This document shows, piece after piece, positions 39,601 to 45,600 of a stretch of 64,000 bases of DNA (position 1 is the stretch's first letter; each line of letters begins with the position of its first letter). Source of the DNA: Callorhinchus milii. Lineage: Eukaryota. Location of the stretch: the NCBI RefSeq assembly GCF_018977255.1, contig NW_024704742.1:50098001-50162000 (forward strand), written 5' to 3'. The translations under genes were made by a program, and so were the position numbers. The notes beneath the pieces were generated by a model that searched no databases, was not told the origin of the DNA, and saw nothing but the letters and a program-made list of their open reading frames with translations.

Positions 39601-42600
39601 CATGTATACAGGGGTGTTACAGCTAATCTTACTTATGTAATTGCAGACCACTAAAAAAAGATTCTATAATTCTTTTGAATATGTCAGAATGATGATGAAA
39701 TGATAAAAAGGTAGCCCGATCTGATGTCTACACAGTGGAGCATTCATCCAGAAAAGATTTGGCCATCAAATTGCTGCCTGAAGCATCCTTTTCAGGAAAG
39801 AACCTAGATCAATCTGGAGACTGTGTACATCTGCTGCCAGAAGCCCGAACAGTAAAGTCAAAAGTTTATGAGATCAAGAAAGAAGTTGAGCATTAAATAA
39901 TAAATCGGCAAGAAAGCAGGAAGCTGAAGGCAATTATCAATGGGAACATTTCTAACCAGTCAATAGTGGCCAGGAGATTCCCGAGGGATCAGTCCTGGAC
40001 TTCTTTCTATTCATACTATTTATTAATGACCTTGACAATAGTCTTGTAATGGAAACATCACACAACACCATTAAGAATGAGAATTTATGTTGGTTGTTGC
40101 CACTGGCACTATAAATTTAGCACCACAGCAGCAACTCCCAACAAATTCCCTGAAGAAACCATGAGTTGGGTAAGAATGTTAAAGCTAACACCCTTGCTTC
40201 ACCATTCACCAGTGCTAATTTGTTTCTCACGTCTGCTAGTGAGCTTAAAGCTGACATGAAGTGGATAAATAGCGCAACTTGCCGTCGATCCAGATGTTTG
40301 CAGCAAATATTTGCTGCGGGAATGATGGTTGAAAATAAGCTTTGCAATGACAGCCCAGCAAATCCTGTGGCTCCCATTCTGCATCATTGAACGATCTGTT
40401 TTGGCAGAGGGAAGGAAAGAGGGGAACTCAAGAGTTCCCAGAAAGTAAAGGAGGAAGAGTCAAGTTGGTTACTTTGGCAAAGGAGATTCAAAAAAATACA
40501 CTAATGGAGCCTATGAATGAGCTTATTGAATCATCACGATACTTATACAATGATGTTGGGATGTCTATGAAGGCAAGGAACATCTTTGGACCTTACTCAC
40601 TCTGAATCGCTGACTTTTTATTGTCAAGTTGGTTTTCCAGCATGCAGAGACAACTAGAGATCCAACTGTGACTTGAATCTGAAGCCAGGAAAATCAGCCC
40701 TTGTACCCTACAACAATATATCAGCCTGAGTCTACTCACTCAACAATATTAATCTTTAGAGAGGAATCATGTTTCACTCACTAAAAAAGAGGATTCCTTT
40801 GTTCTTAAGTTGAGCACATAATTACCGGCAGAATGATTTTGATTTTCAGTTGTCAGCAGGGATCATCATATGCAACTCAAACTCCTGAAGTATTTGGTTA
40901 TTCAAATATACCAAATTACAGCAATTGTCCGTGCAAACAAAGCACCTGCCACCCAATGCCCATAAATTACAAATGCAATATCTTAAGTGTTGTTTTCTGC
41001 CTGTGGCTGTGTATATTCACTTAGAACAATTCAAATTACCGTTTAAAACTGTCTTTCATAAGCGAACAATGCAGAACCAACCAGATTGCAAGGAAATCCT
41101 GTATTTTCTCATTCATGATTCTCACTTGGTCCAGGAATAAACCTTATGTCTGACAATGGACCATGTGATTGGAAGTCCTAAAACAAATGCAGCCTTTGTA
41201 GACATTTCTGAGATATGGCTTAAGGATGCAAGATAAATAACTTTTGATTTATGAACCTTTCATTAGCCCATACTCTTTTTGCTCATTGCATCAGCTGCAA
41301 GTAAAATACAAACCATATTTTAATTTCTCTTAAAAACAGTGGTTAGGATAAGACCGACAATAATAATAATAATCCTTGCATTTATTATCAGTGATATTCT
41401 CTGAATTATCAGTGATATTCTCCTTGAACTGTTTTTTGAAAATAAATACACATGTATACATATAATCTGTGTATATAATATATATATTATATGCTATGTA
41501 TATGTATGCTATATATATATAGATATTGCCCACAAAACATAGTCAATCCACATTACAGTATGTTCTGTGAAGCGCTTTGAGATGTCTTGAAGACGTGATA
41601 AAGCGCTATATCAAATGCAATGATTATTATTGCAGTGTGTGCATACATTGGGCTGTGCATTTTGCCAGCTTAAGCAGCATCCGAGGTTAACCAAAGTTCT
41701 CTTACCTTTTCCCATCCAGTGAGGTGGAGACAGCACCGCCTCTGTCCCATTGCCATTCCCATGGGACAGAAAGGGGACCAATTACCAATGGCTCCCAGAT
41801 GATTGACAGCCTCTAGCTGCTTATGAGTGGATGGGCATTCCACCCAGTCACAAGTAGCTCAGCTGTCAATCAATCGCAATTTGATTGGGATAGCTGACCT
41901 TCAAATCAGGCTGCCTTTATTAAGTGATAATATGTCACATCTCAGTAATGCGTCTCAGACAGATGGAAAAAATGGCAGTCCCAATTAGAAGGATAATACC
42001 GAAGTACTGTAATTTCAATTAAAGAGGTCTAAAGTACTGAATTCTTAACTAATGTCTGCTGATAACAAATCCCCCAAATCTAGAAGCAGGCACCATAAAT
42101 GGACAAACTCTTAAATTGCAAATTACTCATATTGCAATTTCACAACGATTTTGATAAAATTGCTTATCACAAATTCACTTGGGAATACAAAGTATATGCT
42201 GCCTTGACATCTTTGGAAGTAGATTACATCAGAGTAGAGATTGTGCAGGTCAACATGATGTGTTTCCAGTTACCAGAAGAAATCTCCATTTGAAAACATG
42301 GATTCCTTAATATTAGAATATTAGAATCCTGCTAGAAAACTCACATTATACCAATTCATGTTGCCTCACCTGTGATTGTCTTTAGTGAAAATTTACGTTA
42401 TTCATATCTGTAACTCACTGTAATTTTGTATTTAATGTTGTGGCAAAATTTTCAACATAATATTTCATCAGTCTTCATTAAATTCCCTTTTACAAACCTG
42501 TACTTGACCGGATGAGCTCTTCCCCCACAGTCTGTCCTAGTAAATCATACTGGTTCAGCCGAGAGCCATCTTCTGCAACTACCACAGATTTTGCTGGTCC

Positions 42601-45600
42601 ATGAGTCCAATTGTAATTCACCTCTGAATATGTATATGCATCTGGAAAGAAAAGAAAACAGTTTTGAACATCAGTATCTATCTCTATCCTTTATCTGTGA
42701 AGACCTGTATTCAAGCGCAGTGCAAAAGAAAGATGTCATGGCAGCATATACTTTGTATTCCTAAGTGAATTTGTGATAAGCAGTTTCATCAAAATCGTTG
42801 TGAAATTGCAATATGAGTAATTTGCAATTTAAGAGTTTGTCCATTTATGAGGCCTGTTTCCATCTTTTAGATGGGATGTTAAACCACGGTCCCATCTGCC
42901 TATTCGAGTGGCTGCGAAAGATCCCAAGACACAATTCAAAAAGAGAAAGGAGATTATTCCGGTGTCCTTGTCAACAATCCTCCAGATAAAACTGGTCAAC
43001 CACTTCACAGCTGTTTCAATCAGTATGTGCAGAATGGCTGTTGCATTTGTCCACAAAATCTGTCACTGCATTTGACAGTACTTACCTGTGAAGCATTTTC
43101 AGACAACTCAACATGATAAGCCACTATATTAAAAAAAAGGTAATTTTTTTATTTTCCTTGGCCGTCTCAGTTCTAAAAGACACAGAACTAAACCCAATAG
43201 ATAAAATAATCTATGAGAGAGTGATAGAGCTCTTCAGAATTTAGGAGTAAGATCTGCTATTGCTCCAAACATGAGTAAAACCCACAATGTCTTATTTCTG
43301 CTTCTGGATCCAAACTGTGAAGTGTTGCTTTAAGGCAACAGTATCACGTCTCACAACAATTAAATTAATTGACAGTTTATAGACAATGACAGTGGATTCC
43401 TCTTAAGTTGTCACTTGTAGGTTTGAAGCCCAAACAAAGTGATCAGAAGAGCATTTTACTTCAGTGGGATGTCATTTCTCCAATAAATCTTTTACATTAA
43501 GAGCAGTAAAATAAATCAGTTACTCTCAACAAATTACTCATATTGCAATTTCACAACGATTTTGATAAAAATGCTTATTTGGAGATAGCTGTGATCACTT
43601 CTATCTGCTAGTGTGAAGGGAATGACTGTTGGGGCTGTTTGTACACAGGGAAATAGAAAATGGCACAAACTTGCAGTAAGGCCCGAAAGGTTCTGACGAG
43701 TCAAGCTTGAAAATTGAAATTTATTTTTAACGTGTAATTGAGTTACTATTTGTAGGGAGAAATTCTACCTAGGTCTACACTTGTTCTATTTATGTGTTCA
43801 TTTTCGAGGACCCAGAATTTGGAAACGTATTATTGTTATAATAATAATAATTATAATAATAATACACATTGTATTCTATCTTAAATATGAAGCTGGTATT
43901 CTGTAGTTTTTAAAGAAACTTAAAAAAAAGAAGGCCGAATTTAACTACAACAATAAATTACATTTATATAGCGTATTTCACATTGAAAGGACGCCCCAAG
44001 GCACTGAACAGTTAAGGGCTTGCACTCGAGCTGGGGGTTGGGATCAAAAGGGGTGGAAAGTATGGGGTTGGAGGGTGGTTGAAAGCACAGTCAAAGAGGA
44101 AGGTCTTGAGATGGGCCTTGAAGGAGATAAGGGGGGATTCCGAGATGGGATGGAGTTCCAGAGGGTGTGGCCACTAAAATTGAAGGTCTGTCCGGCGTTG
44201 GTGTGGTGGCAGGACAGGGACCTGAAGCAGGCCAGAGCTTGCTTAGCTGACAGGTTGGCATTATGTTAACAGATCATTATGTTAACAGAGTTAGGGAAGA
44301 GCACCACCGTGGAGGGCTTTAAAAGTAAGGACTGGTCATCAGTTGGTCATCCATGCAATCTTGTGATATTAAAATTTAAGCTTCTGAAACTCTACCTTAA
44401 TTTGGAAGCTGGTTTCTCACAGCACTTTTTAAGGTGTGTGACATACTCTCCCTCTCCTTCCCCTGCACTTCCCCACCCCACCCACCACCAAATGGCCATC
44501 AATAGAGTTGCTGCCTGGGGAGCAAGTCACTGGAGAACCAGGTGACGGATGTCTGACACATGCAGCAACCCATCACCATGCTTAAGATCCAAACCAGAAT
44601 GAGAGTTCCACGTATGCCACCTACACATGGGAATTCCTATGTCTGGAATGGAATACACCCTCTTCTGGAGGCAACAACCTGCTTATGAAGCACAGGTTGG
44701 CAAGAAACAAGTCTCGGGGAGACCCCAGAGTGTGCTTTTGGGGTACTGAATAACCAGCAAAAACTGCATAGCTTGTCACCGATGGCTGTTTCTTGTGGTA
44801 ATGGTTTAACACAAGTTAGTGACAGATCCCTCCTTGGAGCTCTCTGATCTCAGAAAACTCCATGTGGGATTGAAGCTAGAGACCTTCTGCAGCACGGAAG
44901 GCAATGCTATACACTTTAAATTACTTCTTTATCAGCACTAGATTAATCAAATGATGCAATCAAATTTAGTATCATAANTTTTTTTACCAACAACTGTCTT
45001 TCTATTAAAATTCATAGGTTTGGAAGAACATTTCTAAGTTTTCAATAGATTCTGAGGTTGGCATGACACTGCTGTAGCAACTACTGCAAGATGCCAAACA
45101 TCTGGCACCAGTTATATCTGACGCCAAATATCTGTCCCACAACCCATTCTGGGAACCTTGCCTTATAATTTCAGGGTTGAAAGGAATAATCCTGTGCAGA
45201 GAAGAACACACTCCTAAGGCTTTGTGCATGTATCACATTGAGCTTCCTGGTTTAATGTTATTTCTTATTCATGAGAGAGCTAGGAAATCAATAAGCATAT
45301 CACAAATTCTCTTCTGAATTATGAGTTGTGAAATTCTATATTGCAAAGCAAGATCTCTTATCAGTCATCGTCTGAGTGTTGCATTTTTGGAAATAGTGAC
45401 ATGATGCCAAATAGCCTAACATATTGTGAGTTTAAACTACGGGCAGAAAAACTTACATTTATACATTGCCTTTCCCTTCGGATAATGTCTCGGAGCACTG
45501 CAATAGTCACATAACCAAATTACATTGTTGATAGGGGCACTCCCCATCCGAACAAAGCAGCTATTGCTCCAATTTACATACTTACAGCTTCCAAATTTCA

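What the first reader, a model, noticed from the sequence alone, without database searches (positions are those of the whole stretch)
42083..42860. Near-perfect 121-bp inverted repeat brackets the in-frame 144-bp gabra2 exon
Seen: 42094-42214 matches the reverse complement of 42729-42849 at 117/121 positions, extending to about 132 bp with 3 more mismatches. The 514-nt loop holds the whole exon 42498-42641 and both its splice sites. The arms do not resemble the SINEs or LINEs in the window. The exon is phase 1-1 and 144 nt, so skipping it keeps the frame and removes 48 aa spanning the loop B end, loop F and most of loop C. In the minus-strand RNA the mismatches are one G-U, two A-C and one A-A. 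Established: flanking intronic complementary sequences promote exon skipping or back-splicing, and long duplexes with A-C mismatches are ADAR substrates. Inference: this could be an RNA-structure switch giving a skipped isoform or a single-exon circRNA. A recent neutral duplication is the alternative.
Basis: partly seen in the sequence, partly recalled or inferred. Interest (0 to 1): 0.75.

Follow-up and report, generated by a model that had tools for sequence, protein, structure and literature searches.

The report
Chained backwards copies around gabra2 exon
In the elephant shark, a 121-base piece of intron has a near-perfect backwards twin on the other side of one exon of a brain GABA-receptor gene; the twin is missing in two related species, so it is likely a fairly young DNA-copying scar that is predicted to fold the RNA but probably does not act as an evolved splicing switch.

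Summary
The repeat is real: 117 of 121 bases match across a 514-nt loop holding gabra2 exon 6 of Callorhinchus milii. An independent run's contigs bridge the junctions, so it is not an assembly artefact. Contigs of two related species join 42085 to 42214, so the left arm is absent there. One of them carries the third copy at its own place but is gapped where it matches the right arm. Best reading: two chained inverted templated insertions (third copy into right arm, right arm into left arm) in the C. milii lineage. The arms differ by 3.3%, against about 13% for orthologous intron. The RNA duplex is predicted to be strong, but skipping, editing and circles were not tested. A 144-nt circle is unlikely, and a skipped protein would likely not fold. 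The scan noted similar inverted copies in other genes of this genome. Ordinary class; low interest.

The parts
42094..42214 (+). Left arm L (downstream arm in the minus-strand pre-mRNA, 283 nt past the 5' splice site); backwards copy of the right arm. The segment 42086-42213 is absent from two related species.
   Evidence: 117/121 match. X8 and X14 contigs join 42085 to 42214, skipping 128 nt, with 10 other letters between (tables 5 and 5c).
42086..42093 (+). Junction bases of the insertion; imperfect match to the right arm's flank (5 of 8).
   Evidence: Six letters (42085-42090) equal the reverse complement of six of the 10 letters that relatives carry here; 304 of 20000 random 10-mers did as well, post hoc, so this is only a hint of a local template switch.
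42498..42641 (-). gabra2 exon (sixth in my numbering), 144 nt, phase 1-1, residues 190-238 of the C. milii protein; donor CAG|gtttgt, strong-looking acceptor.
   Evidence: last exon 100% identical to C. milii GABRA2 P0001.
42642..42676 (-). Polypyrimidine tract and candidate branch point (about 30 nt upstream of the exon); inside the loop, not inside the stem.
   Evidence: Sequence shown; branch-point consensus recalled.
42729..42849 (-). Right arm R (upstream arm in the RNA, 87 nt before the 3' splice site); mostly ancestral intron, the likely template for L.
   Evidence: One X8 contig covers 42317-43605 including R (record 26).
42776..42824 (-). Part of R that is a backwards copy of T; likely pasted in within the C. 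milii lineage.
   Evidence: 47/49 complementary to T. The bridging X8 contig leaves out 10 letters in five gaps at 42782-42805. An X14 contig stops fitting at 42776 and runs on for 28 unlike letters.
42860..43150 (.). Worn copy of an abundant interspersed repeat (SINE-like; family name not tested) between R and T.
   Evidence: About 70% matches to many window copies; thousands of contigs pile here.
43530..43578 (+). Third copy T (49 bp), in the same intron as R and transcribed before it; likely the original source; can pair with R.
   Evidence: The X8 contig covers it without missing letters (61 of 61 and 59 of 61, the latter because the piece ends at 43605). Predicted R-T duplex -76.6 kcal/mol.

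Best explanation
The repeat is likely an unselected scar of two chained template-switch events in the C. milii lineage: a 49-bp intron piece (T) was likely copied backwards into the intron 700 bp away (making part of R), and R was likely then copied backwards across exon 6 as a 128-bp insertion (L). Shown: three copies, their presence in an independent run, and the absence of L in two relatives. Inferred: the order T to R to L, and a replication or repair polymerase switching to the opposite or nascent strand. On the minus strand each copy is the reverse complement of sequence 0.5-0.7 kb upstream. At RNA level R is predicted to pair first with T and then to be taken over by L, looping out the exon with its splice signals left in the loop. 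The likely net effect is an intronic double-stranded stretch open to ADAR editing and at most a modest, tolerated leak of exon skipping. The skipped protein would likely be non-functional.
For: (1) X8 (organism B) and X14 (organism C), two studies, each have a contig joining 42085 to 42214. (2) L and R differ at 4 of 121 (3.3%; 95% interval 0.9-8.5%), against 88 of 671 (13.1%) for three intronic X14 pieces and 161 of 1246 for the long X8 piece; binomial P = 2e-4. (3) X8 carries T ungapped at its own place but is gapped in the T-like part of R, and L contains that part. (4) The boundaries are sharp: five flank comparisons were all at chance level. (5) A similar non-repeat inverted pair, 129 bp at 77%, sits in mid-intron 7 (33581-33709 / 35003-35129) and brackets no exon. 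(6) Such events are described: inverted templated insertions up to 128 nt in apes (PMC7954356), and multi-template germline insertions in humans (PMC8421209). (7) All 5 C. milii protein models seen keep the exon; these are annotations, so weak evidence.
Against: No RNA-level test of skipping, editing or circles was obtained, so 'little effect' is inferred. The geometry favours an effect: among inverted BLAST matches across the five exons scanned, this pair has the shortest loop (514 nt; next 1148) and about 95% identity, and it is the only inverted pair across exon 6. Inverted repeats are more enriched at skipped exons the closer they lie, and deleting them lowers skipping in minigenes (PMC13019944). 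The length (128 bp) equals the top of the ape range, where the median is 12. No outgroup outside B and C was laid, and B and C share most listed differences, so they count as about one lineage. The letters of B and C inside R and T were not printed (40 of 205 difference rows shown), so the T-to-R step rests on gaps. Only one C. milii DNA run was laid.
Confidence: 0.72

Rival explanations
1. The scar has been co-opted in the Callorhinchus lineage as a working RNA switch: R-L pairing loops out exon 6 and lowers functional alpha-2, while R-T pairing and ADAR editing oppose it.
For: Predicted duplexes R-L -202 and R-T -77 kcal/mol. In folds of growing transcripts T-R holds about 48 pairs until L emerges, then falls to 0 while R-L rises to about 128. 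Competing pairs steer back-splicing in human cells (PMC5052039 passages). Mouse Gabra2 circles rise in Adar2 knockouts (PMC12775412 passages; exons not seen). Proteins lacking exactly this exon are annotated in 2 of 111 informative proteins (P0038, P0117).
Against: L is absent in relatives. The arms have 4 mismatches and no compensatory evidence. The exon has a strong-looking acceptor and a weaker donor; a preprint found the stability-skipping link only for weak-acceptor, strong-donor exons and judged such pairs not a major cause of skipping (10.1101/2025.03.07.642063 passages). R-T competition follows automatically from chained copying.
Confidence: 0.1
2. The repeat is older than the split from B and C, was deleted in their common ancestor, and is kept alike in C. 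milii by arm-to-arm gene conversion.
For: B and C share most listed differences, so one deletion would explain both; no outgroup was tested. Weak similarity runs 11-18 nt beyond the core.
Against: It needs a second change removing the T-like part of R in the relatives, and a deletion whose ends fall at the edges of the matching arm. The flanks show no older homology.
Confidence: 0.08
3. The arms mainly drive a single-exon circular RNA from exon 6.
For: 30-40-nt inverted repeats can suffice for circularisation (PMC4201285 passages); both splice sites lie in the loop.
Against: In the same paper ZKSCAN1 exons of 400 nt or less circularised poorly or not at all, a 51-nt exon gave none, and the smallest successes were 336-360 nt (section 12). 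This exon is 144 nt.
Confidence: 0.04
4. The three copies are pieces of a low-copy transposon or MITE that inserted separately.
For: About 24% of the window has a distant self-match, so repeats are common here; the genome itself could not be searched.
Against: R and T are covered by orthologous intron in organism B. Only three copies occur in 64 kb, all within 1.5 kb. Summed contig depth on L in X1 is 20-38, against 8-11 beside it and above 10,000 on the neighbouring repeat. The tool warns that this is no copy number, but it leaves no room for a large family at 80% likeness.
Confidence: 0.04
5. Assembly artefact (fold-back chimera).
For: The window holds two Ns, so the assembly is not flawless.
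Against: One X1 contig spans 42130-42817, across both inner junctions. Five of six contig ends fall exactly where the three-copy structure predicts (the sixth is 1 base off). X1 differs from the window at three or more places, so it is probably not the same haplotype.
Confidence: 0.02

Closest known systems
Short-range template-switch mutations (four-point model; Walker et al. 2021, PMC7954356, passages and section 8 part 1 of 2; Monttinen and Loytynoja 2022, PMC8794818, abstract and outline)
   Same: A few bases replaced by the reverse complement of nearby sequence, creating a near-perfect inverted repeat and a potential RNA stem in one step.
   Different: Their median copied length is 12 nt (maximum 128) and templates lie tens to hundreds of bases away. 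Here the copies are 49 and about 128 bp, 0.5-0.7 kb from their templates, and chained: the second copy contains the first.
MMBIR-type templated insertions, including complex multi-template germline events (Osia et al. 2021, PMC8421209, abstract and section 10 part 1 of 2)
   Same: Locally templated, inverted, more than one template, imperfect junction bases.
   Different: Junction microhomology cannot be read reliably here, because the only empty alleles are about 13% diverged.
Exon loop-out by inverted intronic repeats (Alu pairs: PMC13019944, abstract and section 4 part 1 of 2; 10.1101/2025.03.07.642063, passages; TBXT case recalled, not read)
   Same: Lineage-specific complementary arms on both sides of one in-frame exon, with a predicted stable stem.
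   Different: The arms are unique sequence, not a transposon. They are shorter, closer and more perfect. Skipping is not shown here.
Reverse-complementary intronic sequences that drive back-splicing, and competition between pairs (PMC4201285, passages and section 12; PMC5052039, passages)
   Same: Arms flank both splice sites; a third copy offers an alternative pair.
   Different: The exon (144 nt) is below the lengths that circularised in those reporters; no circle is shown.

Membership tests
Locally templated inverted insertion (template switch / MMBIR type) | Insert absent from the pre-event allele | tested here: met
   X8 and X14 contigs join 42085 to 42214 with 10 other letters; polarity inferred, no outgroup.
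Locally templated inverted insertion (template switch / MMBIR type) | Insert is the reverse complement of a nearby template that pre-exists | tested here: met
   117/121 to R, 514 nt away; R and T covered in organism B.
Locally templated inverted insertion (template switch / MMBIR type) | Microhomology or templated bases at the junctions | tested here: inconclusive
   A 6-nt reverse-complement match at the outer junction, reached by 304 of 20000 random 10-mers, post hoc; empty alleles are 13% diverged.
Exon loop-out by inverted intronic repeats | Complementary arms in both flanking introns with a stable predicted stem | tested here: met
Exon loop-out by inverted intronic repeats | Skipped transcript exists and depends on the pairing | not tested
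   The exon 5-to-7 junction was not examined in RNA; a minigene cannot be run here. 5 of 5 C. milii protein models keep the exon.
Conserved RNA-structure splicing switch | Both arms conserved in related species, with compensatory changes | tested here: not met
   Left arm absent in 2 of 2 related species laid.
Repeat-driven single-exon circular RNA | Back-splice junction reads | tested here: inconclusive
   Only assembled contigs of one possible RNA run were available and cannot show rare junctions.
Repeat-driven single-exon circular RNA | Exon long enough to circularise efficiently | tested here: not met
   144 nt, against 336 nt or more in the reporters of PMC4201285; human cells, so indicative only.
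ADAR substrate | Long duplex with A-to-G changes in RNA but not DNA | not testable with these tools
   Duplex predicted, with 45 and 41 A of 121 in the arms; no raw reads or matched DNA for this species were listed.
MITE or other transposon fragment | Many dispersed copies | tested here: not met
   Three copies within 1.5 kb and none elsewhere in 64 kb; no pile of contigs on L at 80% likeness; whole genome not searched.
Known structured RNA family (Rfam) | Match at gathering score | tested here: not met
   5 weak matches in 41500-43500, best E 0.68, all far below gathering.

The most novel reading that the evidence does not exclude
Two chained copying accidents built a three-part, lineage-specific RNA switch in a neurotransmitter receptor gene. 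T pairs with R first and delays the R-L stem long enough for exon 6 to be defined; when L wins, or ADAR fails to melt the stem, the exon is looped out and functional alpha-2 falls. This would be a regulatory RNA circuit born from unique sequence by template switching, with its own built-in competitor.
Probability: 0.07. Interest if true: 0.65.

Novelty: new member of a known kind. Interest (0 to 1): 0.25.

Why it matters
As an ordinary scar it is a clean, dateable example of chained template switching that puts a near-perfect RNA stem around an essential exon without a transposon. Chimaera relatives supply a natural empty-allele control. If the exon is included normally, it shows how much intronic pairing splicing tolerates. 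If skipping or editing is substantial, it is a non-Alu, lineage-specific loop-out in a GABA-A receptor gene.

Tried and rejected
Whole-genome copy count: no genome is held for this window. Run search with the last exon and 3' UTR: no RNA holder listed; 24 rows, none kept as raw reads. X3 (RNA is a guess) had depth in 6 of 30 bins, all on the interspersed repeat, and nothing on exon 6 or the arms; a filter removes some records, so this says nothing on expression, skipping or circles. X14 has no cover at 42777-42828 or over T (its piece stops fitting at 43505 and runs on unlike); holes alone prove nothing, so T's presence in organism C is unknown. Older homology around the cores: an apparent 60% likeness of the L and T flanks was at chance level in all five flank tests and was dropped. 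Rfam: nothing. AlphaFold models of the full protein (mean pLDDT 44.5) and of a natural exon-less protein from another fish (33.7) were both too poor to use. Earlier findings by sequence and nearby: none. In one search, 23 of 134 proteins were dropped for lacking a flank; of 7 flagged, 5 were partial or divergent alignments, not clean skips. The supplement of PMC12775412 could not be read; it may say which exons form the mouse Gabra2 circles. Literature: none of the listed rows (20 of 155; 20 of 627; 4 of 4) or 48 (1 of 1) describes this element by title or abstract start; the library lacks most subscription papers.
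Full report
Setting. The window carries six exons of a GABA-A receptor alpha gene on the minus strand: 48884-48664, 45668-45586, 42641-42498, 38677-38525, 21103-20901 and 18618 to the stop at 18309. 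The last exon is 100% identical to Callorhinchus milii GABRA2 (P0001), and the best solved-structure match of P0001 is alpha-2. No whole genome was held.

Observation. The longest exact inverted run is 62 nt, against at most 18 in 100 shuffles. In the pre-mRNA the order is T, an old interspersed repeat, R, exon 6, L. The copies have sharp edges; five flank comparisons were at chance level.

Is it real? One run of the same species (X1) was laid on 41900-43700. A 688-nt contig spans 42130-42817, across both inner junctions, and other contigs cover the outer junctions and both ends of T. From the window alone I predicted where unique 31-mers end if three copies with these diagnostic letters exist. 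Five of six X1 contig ends match exactly (42123, 42130, 42817, 42820, 43541) and one is a base off (43560 against 43559). X1 differs from the window at 42050, 42066 and 42373, so it is probably another haplotype; the tool warns that the best holder may be the source sample. Summed depth on L is 20-38, against 8-11 nearby and above 10,000 on the neighbouring repeat. That is no copy number, but it excludes a large family.

History. Runs of two coded related species, B (X8) and C (X14), from two studies, each have a contig that joins 42085 to 42214, skipping 128 nt with the same 10 other letters. L is therefore absent there. One X8 contig runs from 42317 to 43605. It covers T with no missing letters but leaves out 10 letters in five gaps at 42782-42805, inside the T-like part of R. 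An X14 contig stops fitting at 42776, the edge of that part, and runs on for 28 unlike letters. The simplest order is: T is native; a backwards copy of T replaced about 40 bases within R; R, now holding that piece, was copied backwards across the exon as L. This order is inferred, because the relatives' letters in R and T were not printed (40 of 205 difference rows shown). L and R differ by 3.3% (0.9-8.5%), against 13.1% for three intronic X14 pieces (88 of 671), a ratio of 0.25 (0.07-0.65). If B and C are chimaeras of another family (inferred from intron identity; names are coded) and the split is near the 187 million years given for Chimaera and Callorhinchus (PMC12952989, passages), L would be very roughly 45 million years old (about 13-120), uncorrected and assuming no conversion. 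B and C share most listed differences, so they count as about one lineage, and no outgroup was laid.

Mechanism of origin. On the minus strand both new copies are reverse complements of sequence 0.5-0.7 kb upstream, as expected if a polymerase briefly copied its own nascent strand or the opposite template (inference). This is the four-point template-switch pattern (PMC7954356, passages and section 8 part 1: median 12 nt, maximum 128), which can create RNA stems in one step (PMC8794818, abstract). Multi-template germline insertions are common in human genomes (PMC8421209, section 10 part 1). Six junction bases equal the reverse complement of six of the replaced letters; 304 of 20000 random 10-mers do as well, so this is a hint only. 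Of 25 inverted matches under 3 kb apart in the window, 4 lie outside dispersed repeats. One of them, 129 bp at 77% in mid-intron 7, brackets no exon and looks like an older, decayed scar of the same size. Earlier AI notes on this genome describe similar local inverted copies at TBC1D9, PCM1, PRAG1 and TCF4; I did not check them, and they are leads, not support.

What the RNA would do. The R-L duplex is predicted at -202 kcal/mol and R-T at -77. In equilibrium folds of five growing transcripts, T-R holds about 48 pairs until L appears, both coexist when L is half made, and R-L then takes over; the predicted accessibility of the branch region and splice sites barely changes. These are equilibrium folds of naked RNA, not kinetics. 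For an effect: this is the only inverted pair across exon 6 and has the shortest loop among the five exons scanned, and close inverted Alus are enriched at skipped exons and promote skipping in minigenes (PMC13019944, section 4 part 1). Against a large effect: a preprint found the stability link only for weak-acceptor, strong-donor exons and judged such pairs a minor cause of skipping overall (10.1101/2025.03.07.642063, passages), whereas this exon has a long pyrimidine tract and the only non-GTAAG donor of the five (no splice-site scores computed). All 5 C. milii protein models seen keep the exon (15 of 20 cluster members were listed). A circle of 144 nt is below the lengths that worked in reporters (PMC4201285, section 12). 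Skipping would replace residues 190-238 by one cysteine. By recalled Cys-loop topology this removes two core strands with loop F, the end of loop B and most of loop C, so the product would likely not fold; my two models were too poor to test this. Proteins lacking exactly this exon are annotated in 2 of 111 informative proteins, from a mormyrid fish and buffalo, so skipping of this exon is annotated far from this lineage. Mouse Gabra2 has a strain-specific skip (PMC4320832, passages) and ADAR2-sensitive circles (PMC12775412, passages); which exons are involved I did not see. Skipping, editing and circularisation in C. milii remain untested.

Verdict. The feature is real, lineage-restricted and best explained as chained templated insertions, a known class. 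It fails the test for a conserved RNA switch. It has the anatomy of a loop-out element, but that function is not shown. The third copy and the predicted hand-over from T to L are the only unusual points, and they follow from the copying history without any need for selection. Novelty: new member of a known kind. Interest 0.25.

Noticed in passing
window 33581-33709 and 35003-35129: Inverted pair of 129 bp at 77% identity, 1293 nt apart, with no distant match in the window, in mid-intron 7; brackets no exon. Likely an older templated copy.
   Followed up: partly
window 20220-20296: 77-bp near-palindrome (93.5%) made from interspersed-repeat sequence, in the last intron.
   Followed up: no
window 46163-46241: 79-bp imperfect palindrome (81%) outside dispersed repeats, in the intron upstream of exon 5.
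   Followed up: no
window 1693-2499 and 49811-50569: Direct copies of about 800 bp at 91% identity, 48 kb apart, with a 300-bp part at 98%; probably young copies of one retroelement.
   Followed up: no
window 41800-41875: Short imperfect hairpin with only weak Rfam matches.
   Followed up: no
window 41946-42029: X8 and X14 contigs also skip 84 nt here, a second lineage difference just outside the left arm.
   Followed up: no
window near 42802: A second X8 contig adds depth of about 51 inside the T-like part of R (table 4); its origin was not shown.
   Followed up: no
proteins, aligned: Eight GABRA2 records from other vertebrates lack residues 238-288 (the next exon, 153 nt, also in frame), more than lack exon 6 alone (two); some may be annotation gaps.
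   Followed up: partly
window 9740 and 44978: Two single N positions in the assembly.
   Followed up: no
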